Shown here one piece after another: positions 5,526-62,309 of a stretch of DNA of 64,000 nt (position 1 is its first letter; each line of letters opens with the position of its first letter). The position numbers were made by a program, and so were the translations under genes. This DNA comes from Octopus vulgaris (lineage: Eukaryota). The DNA is taken from contig OX597822.1 of assembly GCA_951406725.2 (NCBI GenBank), positions 13,268,001 to 13,332,000 of the forward strand, given 5' to 3'. The notes beneath the pieces were generated by a model. That model saw only the letters and a program-made list of their open reading frames with translations, ran no database searches and was not told the origin of the DNA.

Positions 5526-6027
5526 ATGTGTGTGTATGTGTGTGTGGTGTGTGTGTGCGTGTGTGTATGTACATATATGTATATATGTATGCATATATAT
5601 CTATATATTATGGATATATATATATATATATATATATACATACATAAGCATACGGCTGTAAGCTGATGCAAGTACAATATATAAACCCATATGTTTGCGC
5701 ATGTGTGTGTATATGTGTTAGGTGTATGCATAGTTACATTGTTAAGGAGCATATTACTCAGAATATCACACTTGATGCTCTGTGTGGCTAATCGATCTGC
5801 CACCCGCAATCGGTGAAGTCTCTTGCTACGTTCACCCTGAAATGTAGTTCCGTTCTGATCGCTTTTTGATTAGACTGGAGAAAATGTTCAAGAAATTTTA
5901 TATAAATCATTGTCTGATGATTGAGTTAAATTGCAAATGGGAGAGAGAACTTCTCAGCAATTAATATTACTTGATATGACAGTTTGTTCGTTGGTTCTCG
6001 ATTGTCCCTGGTATAATTTTCGACATC

Positions 6028-8820: not shown

Positions 8821-9030
8821 CAGTTAATCCAAACATGAAAGCACAAAGAGAAAACACAACAACGCGAGGACGTGGAACAAGTATAGTGTTATTGGACACT
8901 CAGGAATGGAAAGAAAGAAGGAGGATTTAACGTTTCGAGCGGAGCTCTTCGTCAGAAACATAGGAAAAGGAACGATCCAAAGAAGGGAAGACGGAGGGGA
9001 AAAATCGCCAACGATACACACGCGGTCACA
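8821..9030 (-). mobile_element. Short PLE-like element with minimal HHR, in (TA)n
   Basis: Flanked by TA repeats; an HHR-deleted sister copy lies at about 13010-13130 (+). Confidence 0.7.
8925..8959 (-). ncRNA. Minimal type I hammerhead ribozyme motif
   Basis: Minus reads gttt CTGACGA a GAGC tcc GCTC GAAAC GTT aaat; stem III is the palindrome ACGT. Confidence 0.75.
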
Positions 9031-9100
9031 ATATATAAGCCTGTGTATCTGTATGTGTGTATACATCCATGTATAGATAGATAGCTACATGAACAGATAA

Positions 9101-9952: not shown

Positions 9953-10298
9953 AAAAAGGCAAGCAACAGGTTGCTTAGCCACATACCTAAAAATTAGAAA
10001 TAGCAGTCAAAGACCGCTTATTTCTATTTTTCTACAAAGATAACTCCACATATGACATATACATTTAACTCACATATGTAGAACAGAAGGAAAATAACGG
10101 AAACAAAGTCTTCGGTCATATATATTGGTAAATACGGTAAGATAACAAAAGAAAGAAAGAGACATCGATATTATGTAAATAGAGGAAATTATTTGTAAAT
10201 GTAATACCTCGGCATCCGAAACTCAGACTTTTATCTTGGCTACCGAATAATTGTCACATATTACATTTACAGTTATATACATATATATATATATATAT

Positions 10299-10501
10299 GT
10301 AGGTCCCGGGTTGATTCGGGGTTAACCACAGTAAATAAGGTACTCAATACATAGCAGAGTAAAATTAATTTATTATATAGAAGGAGCTTCTACAGGACTA
10401 GAACTGTTTCATTCAAGAGAAATCTTCAGGAAGCTCCTGAGCTTCCTGAAGATTTCTCTTGAATGAAACAGTTCTAGTCCTGTAGAAGCTCCTTCTATAT
10501 A

Positions 10502-10507
<6 letters not shown>
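10299..10507. mobile_element. PLE-like terminal-repeat fragment with perfect 69-bp inverted repeat, in (TA)n
   Basis: Arms 10368-10436 and 10439-10507 with 2-nt spacer; related single arm at 30790-30857. Confidence 0.8.
10439..10491 (+). ncRNA. Type I hammerhead ribozyme motif (mirror copy on minus at 10384-10436)
   Basis: GAGCTTC CTGAAGA tttctcttgaat GAA ACAG ttctagtc CTGT A GAAGCTC: 7-bp stem I, 4-bp stem III, GUA site, weak stem II. Confidence 0.8.
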
Positions 10508-10548
<41 letters not shown>

Positions 10549-11014
10549 CTTTTTTAGTTAAGTGGAAGATACGTTATCCGCGACTTTTGCAGATGGATAA
10601 ATGTGATGCGACTGATGTAAAAGTTGAGAATTTTTAGGCCTGCCTTTGTAGGGATGCCATGAATGTGGATAGCATTCTAAGAGTATTACTGTTTCGGGAT
10701 GTGTTTGAAACGGGATCTACAGTGTCTAAGCAATAGAAGTGAATCGGAGAAACACTGATGTGTTACGTTGTATAAGTTAGCTAGTTTACTGAGGTCGATT
10801 TTGTTGAATGAGTAACAGTAGGCCGCTCAATACGTACAAAAGGGGAGACTAAACGACATCGCCATCCACGTGTAAAACCCTGTTTCTTGAGCCAAATTAT
10901 AGATTCGGTGATGTAGAACGTCGCAAACAACTAAATTATGTGATATAATTAGTCAGAAATTCAGAATTTCTCCCAGGAATTAATTGATAAATATCTCTTC
11001 AGGACTACATAGAA

Positions 11015-11056
<42 letters not shown>

Positions 11057-11578
11057 ACAAAGCAAGAGAGATAACTCCAGTAATATCAAGAGAATTTGGA
11101 AAATGAAGACAATAAAACTAGAAATTAATCTTGATTTCTTTTATCAGTTTTATTGAAATTCATTTTCGCTAACTTTTTTCAAATATTTCTCCAATTTTTC
11201 TTTTAGTTTTCTTTCACTTCTTCTCTCTTGCATTCTCTTCGTCTCGCTTTTCCCTTCTTCTTTTATTCTTCACTTGCCCTCTTTAGTTCATACGTTTTAA
11301 GTTCACTTCTATTGCATTCCTCATGTCCTACCACGTGCCTCTCAGATCATCTTATCTCACAGAAATACATTTTTTCTTTCACATTACACCATCTGTCACC
11401 CATCCTCTTATATACACTTCTTTAATGCCCTCACATTCATCTCGCCTTCTCTTTTACCTTACATTTTCCATCTCACTCACTTGAATGCGTTCTTCACACA
11501 GACACCTGATGTTTACACACACCAACATTCCCCAGTACCATCAACCTACGACACTGTACTTCGATAGTTGCATACTTC

Positions 11579-11986
11579 TACATACATACATACATACATA
11601 CATACATACATACGTACATACATCCGTACGTACATACATTCATACATACATACATACATACATACATACATACATCCGTACATACATACATCCGTACATA
11701 CATACATCCGTACGTACATACATACGTACGTACATACATACATACATACATACATACATACATACATACATACATACATACATACATACATACATACATA
11801 CATACATACATACATACATACATACATACATACATACATACATACATACATGCATACATGCATACATACATACATACATACATACATACATACATACATA
11901 CATACATACATACATACATACATACATACATACATACATACATACATACATACATACATACATACATACATACATACATACATACA

Positions 11987-12015
<29 letters not shown>
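11579..12015 (+). repeat. (CATA)n microsatellite with CGTA variants
   Basis: Seen directly. Confidence 0.95.
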
Positions 12016-12017
<2 letters not shown>

Positions 12018-12391
12018 GCAGCACTGCTCCTTAAACTAAAAAAAATAGATGCACTCCAGTATCTGAACACACACACTCACACAAACACATTCACTCATTT
12101 TTCCACTATTTAACTCTGCCTTAGAATCGCATTTCCACCCACTTACCTGGATTTTACCCGTTATACTTTCGTGTCAGTCAGTTTTTTTGTTTTTGTTCTT
12201 TCACGTTCTACCTTCGTTTTTCATCTACAGTTTTCTTTTGAGAAAAATTTCAGCATCCGTATCGTTACGATTCCTTTTTAAGCGTTAAACAAATACAATA
12301 TTTGTCAAACCATTTCCTCCTGTTATTTCTTGTGATTTTGTTCTTTAGCTACACTATAATAAAGGCATGTATACATACATACTTTTATATA

Positions 12392-12553
12392 GGCGCAGGA
12401 GTGGCTGTGTGGTAAGTAGCTTGCTTACCAACCACACAGTTCAGGGTTAAGTCCCACTGCGTGGCACCTTGGGCAAGTGTCTTCTACTATAGCCTCGGGC
12501 CGACCAAAGCCTTGTGAGTGGATTTGGTAAACGGAAACTGAAAGAAGCCCGTC

Positions 12554-12607
<54 letters not shown>

Positions 12608-12790
12608 GTGTTTGTGTGTTTGTGTGTCTGTGTTTGTCTCCCCAACATCGCTTGACAACCGATGCTGGTGTGTTTACGTCCCCGTTACTTAGCGGTTTGG
12701 CAAAAGAGACTGATAGGATAAGTACTAGGCTCACGAAGAATAAGTCCTGGGGTCGATTTGCTCGACTAAAAAGGCAGTGCTCCAGCATGG
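12392..12790 (+). mobile_element. tRNA-derived SINE group A (CORE-like) with internal (TA)n/(TG)n
   Basis: A-box tggctgtgtgg, B-box-like ggttaagtcc, CORE-like accttgggcaagtgtctt, tail ggcagtgctccagcatgg; at least 8 copies in the window. Confidence 0.9.
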
Positions 12791-13182
12791 ATAGATAGAC
12801 ATATAGGTACATCACAACTAACACTCTATATATATTTGCATGCATGTATATGTATATATATATATATATGTGCATACATACGCACATATATATATATAAT
12901 GCATACACATAAATACATACACATATATGCATATACAAATACATATATACATATACACAAGTACATATGCATATACATACATGTATATACATACATATAC
13001 AACTACATGAGGGCTGTTGCCGTTTTTTTGCTCCGTCTTCCTTTTCTTTTCTTCGCTGAGCATCTGCTAATACTTTGCATGCACCACGTTCTTGCGTTGT
13101 TGATTTTTTCTCGTATTTATTCTTCGTTTTTTTTTTGTGGGGTGGGATTTACTATATATATATATACATACGTGAATACATG

Positions 13183-13222
<40 letters not shown>

Positions 13223-13455
13223 TAAACAGTAAAAATAATTACAGACATGGACAAGAACATGAAACGCCACAGAGACGACACAAGAACCACAGGACGGGAC
13301 ATTCGAAGCCCTCAGTCATCAGTCAAGAACCAGATCATCTTAGCAATTTCGATACATACAGGCATGCATACATGCATACATACATACATGCATATACATG
13401 TACATATATACATATATACACTTACATACATATATATTTATGTGTGTGTATATAA

Positions 13456-13950
13456 GGCGCGGGAGTGGCTGTGTGGTAGGAAGAAGCTCACTTCCCAACC
13501 ACAAGGTTCCAGGTTCAGTCCCACTGCGCTGCAACTTGGGCAAGTGTCATTTACTATAACCTCGGGCCGGCCAAAGTCTTGTGAGAAGATTTGGTACACG
13601 GAAACTGAAAGAAGCTCGTCGTATATATATATGTGTGTGTGTGTGTATATATATATATATACATACATATGTGTGTGTGTGTATATGTGTGTGTGTATGT
13701 GTGCATGTATGTATGTATGTATGTATGTATGTATGTATGTATGTATTTGTGTGCTTTTGTTTGTCCCCTCACCATCACTCGACAACCGATGCAGGTGTCT
13801 TTACGTCCCCGTAAATTGGCGGTTCGGCAAAAAGAGACTGATAGAATAAATACTAGGCTTACAAGGAATAAGTCCTGGGGTTGATGTGTTCGACTGTAGA
13901 CAGTGATCCAGTATGGCCGGCGTCAAATTACTAAAACAGATAAAAGAATA
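13456..13950 (+). mobile_element. SINE group A, full length
   Basis: Same head, core and tail as the 12392 copy. Confidence 0.9.
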
Positions 13951-14298
13951 TAAGAACAATGCATGAATATACGAACATGAAACTCTGTCGCGTTCGCACT
14001 TAGACGCAGAAACCTCCCTTGAGTAATTTTCCGTTATCATATTTAACGACATTATGGTCGGGTGTACAAGTGCCAGTTGGTATAAATCGAACCGTAGACT
14101 CCACTACATGTCTGATATTCAATACCCTCTCGATTCTGTTATCTCCAATCTGCAATGTAGCTGGGTGAACGCCAGCCAACAATATTTTGGTTTGTTGTGA
14201 CAAATTTCTGATATTTATTTCTGTTTTACTTTCTGTGATCGAATATATTTTCGAAAAAAATATTTTTCTTACACTTTTTCCTCCATTTAAATACGCTG

Positions 14299-14381
<83 letters not shown>

Positions 14382-14989
14382 TCGTTTTGTTTCTTTATCT
14401 CTTAATTACACACGCTGTCTCTTCTCCCTCACCCTCGCTATCTAACAATCTATCTCTCTATATCTTTCTCGCTATCTCTATAACTATCTCTTATCTAAAT
14501 ATCTATTTCTACAACGGTATCAGTATTCATATCTGTTTGTTTTTCCACCATATTGCTATGGCGTCAATTTCTGATGCACGTTATTCCTATTGTTAGTGTT
14601 CTGTTCTTAACAGATTTCAACGAGTAAAAAGCAAGAAAAATAAAACAAAACAAAACAGAAAAAATTCATATTTCATGCCTTATTTGGTAATTACATATTT
14701 ATTATTTTATTATTGTTATTGCAGTTCTTGTTTTTTTGGCTAATTTTATATTATATTTTATATTAGTTTTATTTGATTTAGAGTTTTTAGCAGTCATATT
14801 GGAACTAACAACGACGAACATACCCCATCGTGGCTAAAAACGTCTGTTGTTAAATAATTCTAGAATGAAACACACAAATAGACAAACGTAAATACGGACT
14901 CAAGCGTACGCACGGATATATTAGAACAGACATATAAACATAGTTATACGTGTGTGTGATTATATATATATATGTATATACATATATAT

Positions 14990-15074
<85 letters not shown>

Positions 15075-15205
15075 TTCATCAAAAATTTAGATTCAGATGA
15101 ATATGGTACTTAAGTTAAAGGTACCAGAATTTGGTATGGTATTATCCATATAAATCAAATAGGGTGATTATAATCAAAATAAGCAACAAGGATATCCAAA
15201 GGTAG

Positions 15206-15293
15206 TGTAGTACAATCGTTTCATACTACTTAATTTTATTAAACAATGTAAGTATTACATCAGTTTTAAAATGTAGACCACTCTTCAGCCACA
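15206..15293 (-). ncRNA. Type I hammerhead motif with long stem II, in a TA-flanked element (about 15072-15680)
   Basis: Minus reads TGTGG CTGAAGA gtggtctac...gtagtat GAAAC gatt GTA CTACA. Confidence 0.7.
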
Positions 15294-15709
15294 TATGGAA
15301 TTTTAAAATTAAATTGACAAGATTCATTTTTATATTTATTCCATATGCCAACATTACAAAGAGGGTAGGTATATAGACAGAGAGGTGAATTTCATCAGTA
15401 AAAACATGGTAGTAGAAGATCTTTACTCATGGGCAGATATTTTATCACTGAGTTCACTTTGTTATTTAGATTTACCAATGGGGAGGGGGTCTTCTATTAA
15501 GTTCAATGGAGACAATCAAGAATTTTTCTAATTATAGATGGAGGAAGTGGCAGTTTAAATGGCCGAGCCATAAATCCAACCCTTTTGTGAGGAATTTAAC
15601 TTTGACACATTTGAGTGTATTTTAGCTAAAGTTAGTAGGCTGAAGCTAGGGAGAAGTAGGGAGAATAGAGACTTCTAATGCCCTCGACTTACTCGACCGA
15701 ACTATCATT

Positions 15710-15925
15710 TTCTTTTATTTGTTTCTGCCATTGGATGCAGCCACGCTGGAGCACTCCCTTGCAAGGTTTTTTTTGTCTGAAAAATGAAAGCCAGTGCTTA
15801 TATTTTATGTTTATGGTTGCCACTAACTTTATTGGTCTCTTTTACCGAAGCGATAGCTTACGGTTTCATAAACAAACCAACACCGAAGCGGTGCGAGGAG
15901 AAAGACACAAAGACACACACACAAA
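15710..15925 (-). mobile_element. SINE group A 3' part, degenerate
   Basis: gcagccacgctggagcact...accaacaccg...gacacaaagacacac. Confidence 0.65.
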
Positions 15926-16567
15926 CATACATACACACATACATACAACATACATACATACGTACATATATATATACATATATATATATAATATAATATA
16001 ATATAAATAGTATATAAATATATACATATATACATACATATATGCACATACCTACATATATATGTATATATATATATGGATATATGGGTACAGTAGATAA
16101 AAAACCTGAACAAAATAAGAAACGAGAACATGAATAAGAAAAACATAGAAAACGAACATTTTTCGAACAACGAAAGAAACAGAGAAACGAGACATGCAAC
16201 ATAAATAACTTTTCCTTTATCAGTTGTTCTCTGTTTTATCTACTCCGCTTTTCGAAGGTAGGGACAAATATATATATATGTGTGTGTGTATGTGTGTGTG
16301 CGTGTATACATATATAATTAGAAAAAGGAGAAACCACAGATTAAAAAACACATCAATTGGACCACATTTATAGCTTATTTTTTAATACAAAGCACGATAT
16401 AAAATAGGTGACGTAACATATCTTACGGCTGTTTCTGATCTGTTACCAAAATGGTGTCTATAAATAAATGCGAGAATAAAGTTTTTCATCTTAATAGGGC
16501 ATTCGATAATATTACGGATATTTTATCCCTTAGTCGGTTATTATAACCGCTAACTCTATTTACAATT

Positions 16568-16625
<58 letters not shown>

Positions 16626-16828
16626 GGATTTAACATAAACCGAAAAATTTAACAAGAACACACCAAAATGAAAATTTTACAAAAACCATAACAAACGAAA
16701 AATTCGTAGCTAATTGCTCGTTAGTCAACATCCGAAAGATCATAACAATGGGAATAGTTAACGAACGTACAAGACATTGACGTAAAGAAATATTACAAAC
16801 TAAACTAATTATCATAATTAAACGTATA

Positions 16829-17821
16829 CTGGTTGAATTACCCGACGTTGCCCGGGTTACTGTTGTCCTTGTTCAGATTAGTAATCAATAAATATGAAGA
16901 TATATTTGTTTTTCTCACAATGATTTCAAAATATCTATATTTTATTTTAAAATCTCCAAATTGTAATGACAATAGAACTTAGAACTGAAAATCAATCAAT
17001 TTTGAAGCACCTCGCTGTAAACAATATCTGTTGTGTAATTTTGTTTTTTGGTGTCCAAATGAATGAATTGTTGCTGCTTCCAACTCGTGAGCCACGAACA
17101 TTTGGTCGTGGGAGAAGCGTGTAGTAGAGAGATGAAGTCCAACTATCTGGAAATACCAAAACTTAGTTTGACTGGAAACTGAAGCCTTTTAAATTCAAAT
17201 GGAACATCTGTAGGTATGAGAGAAAATTTTGGAATAAAGGCATTCTCTTTTTTGTGACTACCATTATGATTATTGCTTGTAGGAAATAGGGTTTCATGGA
17301 AGTAACAATTGAGTTCCATTACCCATGTGAGTTGGATCAAGATTCCTAAAGAACATAATGGAAGCATCCAGCTTTAGAGTCGAGTTATGCGGTGACATCC
17401 CAGTGGGTTTGAGTGTGTTCAGAAATTCAGCAGGGTATTGAACAGCCTGATCTTGATCGACTGTTGTCAGTTGATCGAAAAGTCAATTCTGATGTATCTG
17501 TTAATTTTTGAAGAAGTTCATGATTGAGTTTATCAACCATTTCATGAGTTGGAGCCCGTATAGCTCTTTCAAATAGCCAGATGGCATCAGTGTAATTGGC
17601 AATCACACATACACTCACACATACATACACTCTCACATACACTCACATACATAAACGAAGATAGACACACAGACATACATAAACGAAGATAGACACACAG
17701 ACATGCATTTACGTAACGAACGCGCAAACACGCACACACACTGACAGACACATACACACTCATATACAAAATGTGTCGTCGTGATACAAAACGTCGTATA
17801 CTATAGTTGACTATAGAAAGA
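16829..17821 (-). mobile_element. Internally deleted Helitron
   Basis: Minus: 5' A|TCTTTCTATA; 3' hairpin cccgggcaacgtcggg followed by CCAG|T (CTAG variant); contains helicase remnant. Confidence 0.8.
17146..17600 (-). pseudogene. Helitron RepHel PIF1-like helicase fragment (frameshifted)
   Basis: Manual translation gives NYTDAIWLFERAIRAP, EFLNTLKPTGMSPHNSTLKLDASIMFFRNLDPTHMGNGT and IPKFSLIPTDVPFEFKRLQFPVKLSF, all classic Helitron helicase motifs. Confidence 0.9.
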
Positions 17822-18399
17822 TTATTTTCGAGAAAATGTTATATTGTTGTAATCCAAACGAAAATAAAAATCCCATGTAGCGGAACCCTCGTCAGTCGTG
17901 TACAGCGGGAGGGAAGATGTCACTACGCCTAGGGTTACGGTTCCTTTACGATAAGGAGTAGACGTGATTGTTTATGGCTACAACCTTCACATTACTATCC
18001 TGCTACACAGTTACTGCTAAGTCCTCTTGGAATATTTTAGCTTTGTAAATTAAAAACTAATTTTTAGCTTAAAATTGTTTTGGTGACGGCAAAGAGAATC
18101 GATCATATGTTTTTTGTTGAGAAGTTTTTACCTTTCATTTCCCGAAACCTATTGTGGACCAGGAGTGCCACTAAATAATTATTGCACATATTATGTTTAG
18201 ACTTCTCCCTTTCAGGTTCGAAATGCGCCGCGATGAGCACGTGGTATTCCTTTTCGATGAAATTCTTATGTTTCATTCCCTGGCTCTGAACGTTCCATTT
18301 GCTGCGCCGATATTATCTATGTTAGTGTTTTCTATTTCGGATTCATTCTCTTTGCACTGCTGGAGCTTAAAAATACTTTTAAACGACTGACAGGAATGA

Positions 18400-18900
18400 T
18401 CTAGATCTGGAATGAAAACATCTATATTCAGTCGTAGGTTGTTGACCACTTGATATTTCGATATTAATATATCAGATCGGTAATTTTGGTTCTGCTTGAA
18501 ACGGTAGCTAACTTTTATATTGATCTATTGATCTTATTAAAGACTGTGTGCTACTTGAGGCAGATTCGGAAATGTTGAATTTCCTTTTAGCTCTTCATTA
18601 CAGGATGGTTCAAGCAAGTAAAATATTATTTTACCACGGGATAGTGCTGACATTCTCCTGCTTCCTTTATTGATTAGATTTTGTATTACTGAAGGCAGGT
18701 ATTAGTGGGTAGATAGAGTGTCCGTTTATAAATATAATTGCGAATTTATATTTTGTTTTCCCTTTTTGTTAATTATTTTACCAATGTAACGTTTAGTGTT
18801 ATACCTAGTAAACTGCGCATCAATGTATTGGTTGAAGTCCTTGAAAGCATTTAAGTTTGTCCGTCGTGCGAGCGACTCTGCCACCTCATCGCCTTACTAT
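18400..18900 (-). pseudogene. Decayed Penelope-like RT, C-terminal part
   Basis: Manual translation: FKDFN, LLGITLNV (FLDVTLNL-like), FINGHSIYP (SNHPP-like), RRMSALSRGKIIFYLLEPSCNEELK. Confidence 0.55.
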
Positions 18901-18939
18901 TCTACAAATGATGTCTTTATGACAAAGCATCAACGTCTG

Positions 18940-19410
18940 TCATCCATGGAAACACAAAGATCTTCATATCTGTTGATAAAAAAGGGGGAAATGCACTTCG
19001 CAGAGACCCCATAGAAAGCTACCCCGCAAAACCTCTCCCGAGCAAAACTGTAAAATTAGGTAAAAAAAATAATAACAAAACTCCAGTCCCCAACTATTAC
19101 AATGTAATCAGTTTGAAAGCAAATATCAACCACCAGTTTACAGATGAAACAGAGTTCTTTAGTCATTCGTCAAGCCTGCATCCTCTTGAAAGCCCAGGAA
19201 ACCAATTTCGTAGCCGACCCTTAACTATGGACGCATTTGATCAAGAAAAATTAGTGTAGTTAACAAAATCATTCTAGCAAACCATCAACGACAAAATCAA
19301 TCAAGCAGCAAATTTAATGCAGTGGAGCAACTTCAAAATTGTAACCGAACTGCTTAAAAGGAAATATCACATAAATTTACTCAGTTCGACAAACAAAATT
19401 TCACTCATTA
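18940..19410 (+). pseudogene. Decayed Penelope-like RT, N-terminal part (inverted relative to 18400-18900)
   Basis: KIFISVDK (ADK-like), INDKINQAANLMQWSN (LNQWKN-like), HKFTQFD. Confidence 0.55.
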
Positions 19411-19830
19411 ATTGGAAAACACATTTCATGTATTAAACATAGCCAGCAACTTCAAGAGGTATGAAAATGCGTCCGAGAATCACTTCTGTCCTCTGATGAT
19501 TGTTAACGAAGAGATGAAGAAGATAACGAACGAGTTTTTCGATGTTAGTACGGATACATATAACAGGGTTGAGATGACGTAAAATGACGCAAAAATGATG
19601 GTCAGCCAGCTTTTCCACTAATACATTTAGTATACTAATACAATTAAGTGTATTGAAAAACTGTTTTTTCCGCATTTTGCTGGGAAGCAATCGTAGTTGC
19701 AGTTTTTCTCCATAGCAGTTTACCCTCAAAGAGAAAAGCTTTCAGAGGCGAAGTCTTGGAAAAATCAAATAATTGAACCATGCTTTGGAATCACAACAAA
19801 GCAATATCGTGTGAGAGCACTTTCAGGAAA

Positions 19831-19870
<40 letters not shown>

Positions 19871-19941
19871 CGAACGAATGCCCGCACGCATATACATACG
19901 TATAGTTACACACACATATATATATACATACATACATATAT

Positions 19942-19976
<35 letters not shown>

Positions 19977-20047
19977 CGCGCGCGCGCGCGCGCACACACA
20001 TATATATATATATGCTGTTGTGCCTGGGGAGAGTCATTCTCTTTTAC

Positions 20048-26423: not shown

Positions 26424-26516
26424 ATTTACATTATTTACATTTGACGGATATTTTTCCTCATCTTGTTTGTTGTTAACACAACGTTTTGGCTGCTATACCC
26501 TTCAGCCTTCATCAGG
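26424..26516 (-). mobile_element. 5'-truncated copy of the 51.6-52.3 kb HHR element with 13-bp TSD
   Basis: Minus reads CTGATGA a GGCTG...CAGCC aAAAC GTT GTGTT; TSD aggttactgtttt at 26411-26423 and 26514-26526. Confidence 0.8.
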
Positions 26517-28327
26517 TTACTGTTTTGTTCAACGTGTTAAAGACTTTGCCAGTTTGCCGTCTTTGAAAAATAATGCTATTATTCTGGCGCTCGGCGCTTC
26601 AATCTCAAATCCTGCCGACGTCGACATTTATCTTTCGGTTACATAAATTACCTGTCAGATATATTGTACTGGGGAGCGAAACTTGTCAGTAATTCGCTTC
26701 TTTTTCCCTTTTTTGAACTCAAATCTGTCGAGCCGTGGAAATGGTCATAGGGAAGCAATCATCGATTCTTTCACAGAAATGAGTTAAACTTGAGTGAGTG
26801 GTTGATAAATTCTTGTAGAAATACTATTATGCTATAGGAACCGTATCCATTGACGGATTGATATGCAGGCCATAACGAGAATGAGTCCATCATGTTTGAT
26901 GATTTAGATCCCAGCACTATTTTTTTCTTGTTGACACCGCTATATTGAATAGTATCATGTGAAAGTGTCGAAATCGTGATGACATTTAGATTATAACTGA
27001 TGAAGGGTTGAGCATTTCCTTCTTACTCGATGCATTAACTGCTAAATTGTTCTATTCATATTTGTTGGCTTTGCCTGGAGTCTTAAGAGTTAAAATAATA
27101 TATATAGTATTTAAATGTTCTTCATATTTGAATTAGTTTGGAAATTATAATTTTTTCGAAAAGTCCCAAATAAAAAGTCGCCCCCTGAAATAAAGTATAT
27201 TTATTCTTTTCTATCCAACTGCAATAATAAACATTTTATTTTATTTATTTATTTATTTTTGATATAGTCGTATCAAATGCGAATGTATATGATATATCAA
27301 TGAATGATTTAGTTAAAAATGCAAAACAGAGAAAAAAAGGTTTTCAAAACAGTCAATATTTTTGTAGTTCAAAAATTGCGATTTGTGACATAAAATGTCC
27401 TCTAGAATTAGCCAGAGTTAATGAGAAACTTGAATTACTAAATATTTTTAAACATACGTCTGCAAATGCAATGTCCATAAGCAATTCACTTTAAATACCA
27501 CGAACACCCGGTACTGAGACTGTTTTTAGAAGATCTCCAAATGAGGCTCATGGCAAGCAATGGGTTAAGAGTGTCTTTTTCTGTATTTCTGTATGCTCCT
27601 TTGTCGTAACTCTATACCGTGAGTTCTATCAAGATAGAAAGAATATGGATAACATGCCGAAGTTTCTATTGAAAATATTAGAAGAAACACCATTATTTCT
27701 ATCTCAATAATTGTTCCCATGGAAAATGTATTTTTTGATAGAGAGTACGTCAATATGCATGTTCCCTAATATAGCTCTCTGCTACATATAAGTAACGAAC
27801 GCATTTTGCTGTCTATATATCATATATATATGATGTTCTCTCTAGTTCTCTATAGTTTCCTTATTCGATATATAAACCTCTAATGCATTCATCTTTATTT
27901 CCAATCGGGCAGCTTCCCAGGAAACACATATTCTTTCGACTAGACGCACGTATATTTTCCATATCTTTTTTTTCCTATGAAGAGCAGAATGGGCAAGTAG
28001 ATTCATAAAGAGAAACCTGAATGAATTAGTTAAATGACCAGCTTTATTCTCCTTAGAATATATCTAATAATATCTGTATAATATTCACTTAATGCCTCTT
28101 AATGCCATTAAGTGTAAAAATAAGCTTGTTTTTCAGGTTTTTTTTTCTTCTAAGGGTTTTAAAGCTACCGTGCGTTTGAAGCAGTCAATATAAGAACATA
28201 TATCTGTATGTCTGTATGTTAGTTTGTGCCAATGTGCATGTATGCAGGAATATATGTGTGTGTGCGCTCGCGTGTGTGTGTGAGTGAGTGAATGTGAATG
28301 TACATATATATATATATATATATATAT

Positions 28328-50857: not shown

Positions 50858-51234
50858 CGGTTGCTGCTGTTGCTGTTGAGCGAACGGTTTTCGTCCCAGA
50901 GCTCGCAAGATGGGAGAAGTCCGAAATGTGGTCCTTTGCTATTCGTAAGACCCGCAGAAAAGAAAGCAGGTCAACCTCCGACATCGAGAACATCGACGGA
51001 TGGATGAATGCGCATCCAGGCTCAGCGGTTGCGTAGGAAGTCGGGGACAAGAAACAGGAAGAAAGAGTGAGAGAAAGTCGGGGCGAAAGAGTACAATAGG
51101 GGTCGCCAATAGGAGCCTCGTGGAGATTTAGGTGTTTTCGCTCAATAAACACACACAACGCCCGGTCTGGGAATCGAAACCGCGATCCTCCGACCGCGAG
51201 TCCGCTGCCCTAACCACTGGGCCATTTCGCCTCC
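50858..51234 (-). mobile_element. tRNA-derived SINE (OR-like head) with alternative tail
   Basis: Head nearly identical to the 61932 copy; diverges after tttctctcact...cttcctgtttct; TSD-like ttgctggtg(t/a)tg at 50846 and 51237. Confidence 0.85.
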
Positions 51235-51569
51235 GCTTGCTGGTGATGTTGTTGTCCTTGTCAACGTCATCGTTATTGTTGCTGTAGTTGTGTTGTTGTT
51301 GGTGGTGGTGGTCACCGTAGTGATAGTCGGTGCATTGGATTATTTTTAGCCCTATTGCAATCCTGATCAAGCAGTGATACGATCATAAGCATTCCATGTG
51401 TTACCATCCCGTCTTTATTTTCTTAAATGTAAAAGAAACCACAGGATGGCATCAACAAGTTTGTCAAATATAAGACATTTCTATCCAATAGAAGACTGAG
51501 GATGAAGTCGTCTTAAAGAAAGATCCTTATCGCAGATATTCCATTCTGTGAACAATCGGAAGCAATATT

Positions 51570-51751
51570 ATTTATATTATTTACATTGTTTACATTTGAC
51601 AGATATTTGTCTTCATCTTGTTTGTTGTTAACACAACGTTTCGGCTGATATACACTCCAGCATTTATCAGGTGTCTTGGGGTAATTTAGAACCTGGGTTC
51701 TCATTCCTAAGGTATTTTTCGATGCTCTTTTTGTTGTTATTATTGTTATTA

Positions 51752-51826
<75 letters not shown>

Positions 51827-51923
51827 GGTCACAGCCTAGAATCAAACTCGGAATCTTGGGTTTAGTAGCCCGCGCTCATAACCACTACTCCAAGATTCCG
51901 AGTTCGATTCCAGGCAGTGACCC

Positions 51924-51989
<66 letters not shown>

Positions 51990-51991
51990 TG

Positions 51992-52058
<67 letters not shown>

Positions 52059-52063
52059 TAATA

Positions 52064-52102
<39 letters not shown>

Positions 52103-52287
52103 TTAACATCGAAAAATACCTTAGGAATGAGAACCTAGGTTCGAAATTTCCCCAAGACACCTGATGAAGGCTGGAGGGTATATCAGCCGAAACGTGTTAA
52201 CGACAAACAAGATGAGGACAAATATCCGTCAAATGTAAATAATATAAATGATGTATCTAATTCCTCATCTCTTAAATATAGAACTAC
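51570..52287. mobile_element. Head-to-head inverted pair of a tRNA-head + (AAT)n + HHR-tail element, with 15-bp TSD
   Basis: Minus unit about 51888 to 51570; plus unit about 51890-52287; B-box gagttcgattcc at 51900-51911; TSD atcggaagc(a/t)atatt at 51555-51569 and 52288-52302. Confidence 0.85.
52156..52198 (+). ncRNA. Minimal type I HHR motif (mirror copy 51630-51675 on minus)
   Basis: Three-copy consensus GACAC CTGATGA a GGCTG-loop-CAGCC GAAAC GTT GTGTT; each copy carries a private lesion. Confidence 0.75.
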
Positions 52288-52317
52288 ATCGGAAGCTATA
52301 TTTAAAAAAATACGTCT

Positions 52318-55696: not shown

Positions 55697-56148
55697 TAAG
55701 TAGGTGAATGAATTATCCTATGTTTATCGTCAGCATGGAAAATTCGTTTAACCGATACCTGGGTAGCAAATTCACGTCAGAAAACACGGTTGAAGCGACC
55801 TGTCAAGGGTAGAAACTCCGGGTTCATGTGTAGAAATTTGTGTGTTGTATATGAATAAATGAAAGAATGGAGTCGAACGAAGATGTTAACAAAATTCCTT
55901 TATTCTCGACACATGTTTTGAAGACAGCATATTTTCATTCCGAAGGAATAAAGGGTGCATTATGCAATCTTCTCATCAGGAAAGAAAAGGAGCCTCTCTC
56001 GACAACATGACAAGGCTTTTTTTCTTTCCTGATGAGAAGATTGCATAATGCACCCATTTATTCCTTCGGAATGAAAATATGCTGTCTTCGAAATATGTGT
56101 CGAAAGTAAATGAATTTTGTTAACATCTTCGTTCGACTCCATTCTTTC

Positions 56149-61931: not shown

Positions 61932-62309
61932 GGAGGCGCAATGGCCCAGTGGTTAGGGCAGCGGACTCGCGGTCATAGGATCGCGGTTTCGATTCCCAGA
62001 CCGGGCGTTGTGTGTGTTTATTGAGCGAAAACACCTAAAAGCTCCACGAGGCTCCGGCAGGGGATGGTGGTGATCCCTGCTGTACTCTTTCACCACAACT
62101 TTCTCTCACTTCCTGTTTCTGTTGTACCTGTATTTCAAAGGGCCGGCCTTGTCACTCTCTGTGTCACGCTGAATATCCCCGAGAACTACGTTAAGGATGC
62201 ACGTGTCTGTGGAGTGCTCAGCCACTTACACGTTAATTTCACGAGCAGGCTGTTCCGTTGATTCGGATCAACGGGAACCCTCATCATCGTAACCGACGGA
62301 GTGCTTCCA
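61932..62309 (+). mobile_element. Full-length tRNA-derived SINE (resembles octopus OR-type, from memory)
   Basis: A-box tggcccagtgg, B-box gtttcgattcc, core tgtgtttattgagcgaaaacacctaaa, tail ...cgtaaccgacggagtgc. Confidence 0.85.

What the first reader, a model, noticed from the sequence alone, without database searches (positions are those of the whole stretch)
51555..52302. Candidate ribozyme-carrying, Penelope-mobilised SINE: tRNA head + (AAT)n + hammerhead tail, inserted as an inverted pair
Seen: on minus from about 51890, GTAGTGGTTATGAGCGCGGGCTACTAAACCCAAGATTCCGAGTTTGATTC (A-box, anticodon-like loop, B-box), then (AAT)n, then a ~170-nt tail with a minimal HHR. A 5'-truncated second unit runs on plus from 51890, head-to-head. 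The whole 718 bp is bounded by a 15-bp TSD (14/15 identical). Established: SINE tails normally derive from their partner LINE; minimal type I HHRs with palindromic stem III and inverted 5' duplications are hallmarks of Penelope-like elements. Inference: a Pol III SINE whose tail is a PLE terminal repeat, mobilised by a PLE RT. I do not know of this combination as a described SINE class, but cannot confirm novelty without a search.
Basis: partly seen in the sequence, partly recalled or inferred. Interest (0 to 1): 0.92.

Follow-up and report, generated by a model that had tools for sequence, protein, structure and literature searches.

The report
Penelope retrotransposon repeat with tRNA promoter
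This is not a separate SINE but the end repeat of a common protein-coding jumping gene, inserted as a back-to-back pair; the unusual part is that the repeat starts with a tRNA-type promoter, so the element may be read by RNA polymerase III.

Summary
The anatomy is real, but the reading changes. Head, (AAT)n and 'tail' together are the pseudo-LTR (pLTR) of an autonomous, 2.66-kb Penelope/Poseidon-type element (RT + GIY-YIG-type endonuclease) with thousands of copies here. The head sits 29 nt behind the ORF stop; the 'tail' is the first ~53 codons of the same ORF (ATG at 52127) and holds the minimal hammerhead, as in other Poseidons. The window holds a head-to-head pair of pLTR-only copies with one long and one short end and a 15-bp TSD: ordinary PLE behaviour. 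Both window hammerheads and both promoters are damaged. What is not ordinary: the pLTR begins with a tRNA-derived head with perfect A and B boxes; 49 of 73 copies start within -20..+8 of the tRNA start and none between -21 and -112; the whole unit has no TTTT on the sense strand (P 0.004-0.17 by null model); relatives lack such a head. Likeliest: the PLE captured a Pol III promoter, and internal priming copies the RNA's first ~270 nt into SINE-like inserts. No separate SINE subfamily was found; Pol III transcription is not shown. Repbase/Dfam could not be checked.

The parts
51555..51569 (+). left target-site duplication
   Evidence: 14/15 with 52288-52302; family TSDs median 12 bp vs 8 in control
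51570..51724 (-). left arm: 5' start of the PLE ORF ('tail'), ending at the short end (site B, ~51576)
51630..51675 (-). minimal type I hammerhead, core changed (CUGAUAA), probably inactive
51696..51704 (-). ORF start codon region of left arm (ATG at 51704)
51725..51824 (-). (AAT/AAC)n spacer of the pLTR
51825..51888 (-). tRNA-derived head, positions +12..+75; B box 51849-51838 with two changes; A box incomplete
51890..51924 (+). tRNA-derived head fragment +41..+75; intact B box 51900-51911
51925..52106 (+). (AAT)n/(GAT)n spacer, expanded
52107..52287 (+). right arm: 20 nt of leader plus first ~53 codons of the PLE ORF (ATG 52127; stop at codon 4 in this copy), ending at the long end (site A, ~52285)
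52156..52198 (+). minimal type I hammerhead inside the ORF start, 3-nt deletion after GAAAC, probably inactive
52288..52302 (+). right target-site duplication

Best explanation
The insert is a head-to-head pair of pLTR-only copies made by an autonomous Penelope/Poseidon-type retrotransposon (shown). That element's pLTR is: 29-nt spacer after the ORF stop, tRNA-derived head with A and B boxes, short (AAT)n, then the ORF start with the hammerhead (shown). The head acts as an internal Pol III promoter that starts RNA about 6 nt before the tRNA-like start (inferred). The RT primes inside the RNA, at two sites about 125 and 155 nt into the ORF (sites shown as copy ends; internal priming taken from Frangieh 2024), and runs off the RNA's 5' end after ~250-290 nt, giving SINE-looking inserts that outnumber ORF-bearing ones roughly 4-10 to 1 (ratio shown; route inferred). 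Two arms, one from each site, are joined head-to-head, by priming on both target strands or by fold-back plus endonuclease resolution (not resolved), with an 11-16 bp TSD. ORF-bearing copies arise when synthesis continues on upstream RNA (template jump, tandem or circular RNA; inferred).
For: PLE identity: RVT_1 E 5.8e-8; endonuclease region 26-30% identical, E 5e-15 to 8e-13, to three relatives with precomputed GIY-YIG hits; 25 of 29 endonuclease-selected loci have head and/or tail directly downstream; 22 of 29 ORF-start-selected loci have the tail in register in front (read from the BLAST table); window peptide 45% identical to the N-terminus of an 847-aa relative, E 6e-6. Pair rule: 46 of 51 inverted pairs long+short, 0 long+long; 30 of 34 in the two sets not chosen for a long end, P 7e-7. 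Pol III: both boxes match consensus at tRNA spacing; best host match tRNA-Arg; 49 of 73 arms start at -20..+8, 0 at -21..-112; exact 27-mer counts 701 just upstream of the head vs 3028 in its first 27 nt and 4738 in the hammerhead; no T4+ run in the 2662-nt sense unit; copies 0.3-0.5 T4+/kb vs 3.3-4.9/kb in related PLEs, none of which has an A/B-box head after its ORF.
Against: No transcript start was observed: RNA reads are strand-symmetric and 76-82% run on into unrelated sequence, i.e. host read-through. The T4 signal is weak under stricter nulls (P 0.064 dinucleotide, 0.17 trinucleotide, 0.031 synonymous shuffle; G4+ is also absent) and two related families also have T4-free ORF stretches. 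Sharp pLTR 5' ends and palindromes there are known from PLEs without tRNA heads (PMC3846280; second family here), and the spacer plus head start can fold into a hairpin (-13.9 kcal/mol for 55 nt) that could by itself stop or fold back the RT. Rfam and ARAGORN do not call the head a tRNA. A 2.7-kb uncapped RNA with a short upstream ATG in the head would need an unusual route to translation.
Confidence: 0.6

Rival explanations
1. Same autonomous PLE and same inverted pLTR pair, but the tRNA-like head is a passive passenger (an old SINE or tRNA fragment fixed in the pLTR). Transcription is Pol II, and the sharp 5' boundary comes from a Pol II start or from RT stalling and fold-back at the hairpin spanning spacer and head start.
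For: Penelope and Chlamys-3 pLTRs hold internal promoters with introns (PMC8557442 passages); palindromes at pLTR 5' ends are common (PMC3846280 passages); many junctions are perfect fold-backs centred at -6..+1; T4 absence is not significant under the trinucleotide null.
Against: Both boxes are perfect although the cloverleaf is lost and identity to the nearest tRNA is only ~64%; the start cluster falls exactly where Pol III would start; related pLTRs are T-run-rich while this one has none; no source SINE with this head was seen in 761 kb.
Confidence: 0.3
2. One reading: the short units are an independent Pol III SINE family with its own source copies, mobilised in trans by the PLE. Short copies with intact boxes could be transcribed and re-primed at the inner site.
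For: About 85-90% of heads are not ORF-linked (6 of 73 are); many start at the tRNA start; their (AAT)n spacer is longer (median 38 vs 20 nt).
Against: The head is part of the autonomous element; no position where the majority base differs between 97 solo and 33-45 ORF-linked copies; short copies end at the RT start sites and may lack the downstream ORF sequence that the anole Poseidon protein needs (first 172 nt, PMC11167929).
Confidence: 0.08
3. Chance composite: a tRNA SINE ending in (AAT)n into which a separate hammerhead element inserted.
For: Other retroelements do insert into these (AAT)n tracts.
Against: Fixed order ORF stop, spacer, head, (AAT)n, ORF start in dozens of loci; one TSD around the whole pair; no free head family.
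Confidence: 0.02

Closest known systems
Penelope/Poseidon PLEs, e.g. Poseidon_Ac of the green anole (PMC11167929) and Adineta Pen2a (PMC3846280)
   Same: Single RT + C-terminal GIY-YIG-type ORF; pLTR includes the ORF start; hammerhead overlaps the ORF start; two RT start sites 30-40 nt apart giving an optional tail at one end; inverted pLTRs; variable TSD; AT-rich targets.
   Different: pLTR begins with a tRNA-derived A/B-box head; described pLTR promoters are Pol II-like (TATA/Inr, intron); pLTR-only copies with a fixed start dominate.
PLE minimal hammerheads (PMC4209133)
   Same: Short stem I, unpaired base before stem II, palindromic stem III for dimer cleavage; paired motifs 100-700 bp apart on opposite strands were already noted there.
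   Different: Nothing new in the ribozyme itself; cleavage triplet is GUU; activity untested.
TRIMp3: Cassandra, Helenus, Ajax (PMC10886601)
   Same: Small-RNA-derived Pol III promoter built into the terminal repeat of a retroelement, probably by SINE capture.
   Different: Those are short non-autonomous LTR elements, and that paper argues autonomous partners must use Pol II; here the repeat belongs to an autonomous 2.66-kb PLE.
Schistosome Sm-alpha/Sj-alpha SINE-like elements and animal non-LTR retrozymes (PMC8490949, PMC6155905, bioRxiv 2026.07.22.740005)
   Same: Short repeats carrying a type I hammerhead, linked to PLEs; Sm-alpha is called SINE-like (its Pol III boxes are recalled, not read here).
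   Different: Tandem head-to-tail units with canonical hammerheads and no shown identity with an autonomous element's own pLTR; here units are inverted pairs identical to the pLTR.
tRNA SINEs with LINE-derived tails (PMC5786205)
   Same: tRNA head, ~250-300 nt, TSD, high copy number.
   Different: The 3' part is the 5' end of the partner's ORF, no simple-repeat 3' end, and the head is shared with the autonomous element.

Membership tests
EN+ Penelope-like element | RT domain in a single long ORF | tested here: met
   RVT_1 E 5.8e-8; one 803-codon open frame in the column majority of 32 copies
EN+ Penelope-like element | C-terminal GIY-YIG endonuclease with CCHH motif | tested here: met
   No direct Pfam GIY-YIG hit; YSIPCSCG..YKGET..EEH..ADH motifs seen and E 5e-15 to 8e-13 to relatives with precomputed PF01541
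EN+ Penelope-like element | pLTR made of ORF 3' flank plus ORF start, direct or inverted, optional 30-40 nt tail at one end | tested here: met
EN+ Penelope-like element | minimal hammerhead in the pLTR | tested here: met
   motif in family majority, full core in 20 of 70 copies; Rfam silent; cleavage not tested
Penelope/Poseidon clade | no CX2-5CxxC zinc-finger-like motif in the RT-EN linker | tested here: met
   linker read in L061/L062 translations against the definition in PMC8557442
Penelope/Poseidon clade | RT phylogeny with named references | not testable with these tools
   no named Poseidon/Neptune reference set was available; relatives carry no clade labels
tRNA-derived SINE | tRNA-derived head with A and B boxes | tested here: met
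   (103 heads; boxes at tRNA spacing; best match host tRNA-Arg among 30 genes of 8 anticodon types); Rfam/ARAGORN negative
tRNA-derived SINE | non-autonomous family separate from its partner, with its own source copies | tested here: not met
   head is part of the autonomous element; no diagnostic majority differences
tRNA-derived SINE | 3' tail derived from the partner's 3' end, usually ending in a simple repeat | tested here: not met
   3' part is the ORF start; ends at two fixed internal sites
tRNA-derived SINE | Pol III transcription | tested here: inconclusive
   indirect support; RNA reads uninformative
Non-LTR retrozyme | tandem head-to-tail units each with a hammerhead | tested here: not met
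   units are solo or head-to-head pairs
Catalogued family (Repbase, Dfam, SINEBase) | sequence match to an existing entry | not testable with these tools

The most novel reading that the evidence does not exclude
An autonomous, protein-coding retrotransposon has replaced its promoter with a captured tRNA promoter and purged Pol III terminators from its whole 2.66-kb unit, so that Pol III makes both its template and its mRNA; because PLEs prime inside the RNA, the element spins off its own SINE-like copies, a direct route from PLE to tRNA-headed, hammerhead-bearing short repeats such as Sm-alpha.
Probability: 0.3. Interest if true: 0.8.

Novelty: new variant of a known kind. Interest (0 to 1): 0.52.

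Why it matters
How PLEs are transcribed and why they make inverted, one-tailed inserts is still open. A family with a compact, mutable promoter (A/B boxes), a predicted start site and thousands of two-ended inserts makes these questions testable. If Pol III reads the whole unit, it contradicts the working assumption that autonomous retrotransposons need Pol II and shows how SINE-like families can come straight out of a PLE. It also warns annotators: these copies will be filed as 'unclassified SINE' although they are PLE pLTRs. If the head is passive, the finding is an ordinary PLE with an odd passenger.

Tried and rejected
Rfam on the window region, eight loci and two short cut-outs: no tRNA or hammerhead hit. 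ARAGORN: none in the window; relaxed run on the head majority gave no credible cloverleaf. Free folding does not give the hammerhead as a monomer, as expected for the minimal type. Pfam GIY-YIG misses this endonuclease. Sequencing-run search: no RNA holder listed on record; laying three raw RNA runs of a related organism and one contig set gave equal depth on both strands and no start site at the head, so no verdict on Pol III. One RNA template for both arms: arms of a pair differ 7.9% vs 8.2% between pairs, with only a small excess of shared variants (26/237 vs 729/11464, P 0.007), so fold-back versus two-strand priming stays open. Donor SINE: none among 84 A/B-box-like segments in 761 kb; 77 were this family and the best outsider scored like a tRNA. 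Viral contigs: no relative. A distant relative used as query in the own genome returned only this family in 30 of 30 loci, so no same-genome Poseidon control. The first hammerhead count had a faulty pattern and was redone; the regex tallies were too strict and are not used. Earlier scan findings: three look-ups, all empty. Two papers (PMC108972, PMC5785218) were not held.

Full report
1. Observation. The stretch 51555-52302 is as described: a 15-bp direct repeat (14/15) around 718 bp made of two oppositely oriented units, each tRNA-like head, (AAT)n and a ~160-180-nt segment with a hammerhead-like motif. The TSD is unlikely by chance (4 of 300 random pairs). Both arms are damaged: the minus arm starts at head +12 and has a changed B box and a changed hammerhead core; the plus arm starts at +41 and has a 3-nt deletion at the cleavage site. 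ARAGORN and Rfam see neither tRNA nor hammerhead.

2. The unit is the pLTR of an autonomous PLE. The window lies in a 2.8-Gb genome (G000; its other SINEs looked octopus-like to me from memory, which guided two literature searches and was not tested). The tail had 2515 first-look candidates. Two of the 29 other top loci showed an endonuclease reading frame just upstream of the head. Searching with that frame, 25 of 29 loci had head and/or tail directly behind it. A near-complete copy (L062) shows N-terminal domain, RT (RVT_1, E 5.8e-8) and endonuclease, then head and tail, and the tail's last bases reappear in frame at the ORF's 5' end. Of 29 loci chosen on the ORF start, 22 have the tail in register in front. 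The ATG in the tail reads in frame into the ORF in 5 of 6 copies where both anchors were found, 4 of them without an indel shift. The window's plus arm translates to the same peptide, 45% identical to the N-terminus of an 847-aa relative from another organism. So the 'tail' is the first ~53 codons. The majority of 32 long segments gives one 803-codon frame, a 29-nt spacer, then the head; the unit is 2662 nt. The linker lacks the Neptune/Nematis zinc finger (definition in PMC8557442), so Penelope/Poseidon type; no tree with named references could be built. Copies are ~5-8% from the majority; no intact copy was seen.

3. The inverted pair is standard PLE output. Among 89 loci plus the window, 51 distinct head-to-head pairs were found; 46 have one long end (tail position ~172-182) and one short end (~136-152), 3 short+short, 2 unclassified, none long+long. 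In the two position-sampled sets it is 30 of 34 (P 7e-7 for 30 of 33). TSD-like repeats have median 12 bp against 8 for mismatched flanks. RNA reads have loose ends at the same two sites. This matches the published one-sided 30-40-nt tail (PMC8557442, PMC3846280), the two internal RT start sites and two-strand priming of the anole Poseidon (PMC11167929), and the opposite-strand hammerhead pairs 100-700 bp apart (PMC4209133). Arms of a pair are about as different as random arms (7.9 vs 8.2%), with a small excess of shared variants; fold-back versus two primers is undecided.

4. Not a separate SINE. 55 of 73 heads have the tail within 750 nt; several others have it further away behind an inserted element. 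No position has a different majority base between 97 solo and 33-45 ORF-linked copies; five tail positions differ in frequency at P<0.01, all towards more decay in ORF-linked copies, which were sampled differently. In 761 kb of the genome no other body carries this head.

5. What is unusual: the head. The majority of 103 heads has a consensus A box (TGGCGTAGTGG) and B box (GAGTTCGATTCC) at tRNA spacing but no cloverleaf; among 30 host tRNA genes (8 anticodon types only) the best matches are two tRNA-Arg (z about 8 against shuffles). I took 73 of the first 74 exact B-box matches on contig C1 (of 1678 genome-wide; the one skipped lies in L103 and starts at about +7). Their 5' ends: 49 within -20..+8 of the tRNA-like start, none from -21 to -112, 5 running into the ORF, 19 cut inside the head, one of which is ORF-linked with a deletion. 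The -20..-7 group partly reflects fold-back junctions that mimic the spacer. Five arms start exactly at a G at -6 preceded by T, and nine at +1. Exact 27-mer counts agree: 701 just upstream, 3028 at the head start (CpGs degenerate), 4738 in the hammerhead; with retention of about a quarter this means roughly 10,000-20,000 arms. The sense strand of the whole unit has no run of four T, the Pol III terminator: expected 5.0 (P 0.004) by base shuffle, 2.6 (0.064) and 1.6 (0.17) by Markov models, 2.8 (0.031) by synonymous codon shuffle; G4+ is also absent (expected 1.0). Individual copies have 15 runs in 48 kb and 21 in 40 kb, partly the same copies. Of 52 related loci from metagenomes (26-61% protein identity), 32 had a 0.9-3.2-kb match: 245 runs in 49.9 kb, 3.3/kb in 11 hand-picked non-duplicate loci of similar T content, zero in 5 loci of two families; none has A/B boxes after the ORF. 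A second hammerhead family in the window (8835-9035) has a T-run-rich repeat and no tRNA head, but also a sharp 5' end. Raw RNA of a related organism shows strand-symmetric read-through and cannot show a start.

6. Mechanism. Shown: element structure, two copy ends, start cluster, box motifs, T4 absence. From literature: internal priming and two-strand cleavage. Inferred: Pol III starts at about -6; RT primes 125-155 nt into the ORF and runs off the 5' end, making the short copies; longer copies need a template jump or tandem/circular RNA; the head was captured by template switch or SINE insertion. I put 0.95 on the PLE-pLTR identity, 0.6 on a working Pol III promoter, 0.3 on Pol III making the full mRNA. 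The main rival is a passive head with Pol II transcription and hairpin-caused stops.

7. Literature. Read: PMC4209133 and PMC11167929 (parts 1-2 of 4 each); bioRxiv 10.64898/2026.07.22.740005 (part 1 of 5 and passages); passages only of PMC8557442, PMC3846280, PMC10886601, PMC13282606, PMC8967140, PMC8490949, PMC6155905, PMC5786205. Not held, recalled only: Ferbeyre 1998, Lunse 2017. Searches for a PLE with a tRNA head or Pol III promoter, or a PLE-mobilised SINE, found no such report; the library omits most subscription papers, and Repbase, Dfam and SINEBase were not available, so the family may be catalogued as a Penelope entry or an unclassified SINE. Closest analogue: TRIMp3 elements, which are non-autonomous.

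8. Verdict. Ordinary PLE insertion structure; new variant in that an autonomous PLE carries a tRNA-type promoter at the start of its pLTR. Interest 0.52; 0.8 if Pol III reads the whole element.

Noticed in passing
window 26424-26517 (-): Third, 94-bp copy of the same pLTR (hammerhead region to the short end), with a 13-bp direct repeat at 26526-26514 and 26423-26411.
   Followed up: partly
window 8835-9035 (-): Second high-copy family (2072 first-look candidates) with an intact minimal hammerhead, pyrimidine-rich, sharp 5' end, ending in (TA)n; probably the pLTR of another PLE; its ORF was not sought.
   Followed up: partly
window 51000-51235 (-) and 61932-62120 (+): An unrelated tRNA-headed SINE, two copies 85% identical; the first lies 320 bp from the finding.
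   Followed up: no
L020, L028, L030, L102, L121, L122, L070-L072, L082, L095: Other retroelements sit inside the pLTR's (AAT)n and split head from tail; some 3' ends look like R4/Dong-type LINEs (label recalled, not tested).
   Followed up: no
pLTR spacer, -18..+17 around the head start (e.g. L062 oriented 5905-5950): The 29-nt spacer is an imperfect inverted copy of the head's first 18 nt, perhaps the relic of an old head-to-head junction through which the head was captured.
   Followed up: partly
L092 and L175: Two separate insertions on C1 share the same 13-bp TSD sequence: same site in another repeat, or a duplication.
   Followed up: no
L104:1000-1270: 3' end of a different GIY-YIG element (Neptune-like by recalled motifs) with T4 runs on its sense strand, next to a copy of this family.
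   Followed up: no
window 51570-52287 and family: Head-to-head pairs form 200-350-bp double-stranded hairpins in host transcripts (head junction alone -66 kcal/mol) and are abundant in RNA reads: likely A-to-I editing or small-RNA substrates; not tested.
   Followed up: no
window 55979-56029: Short inverted pair of a repeat beginning with a CUGAUGA-like motif on both strands; not examined.
   Followed up: no
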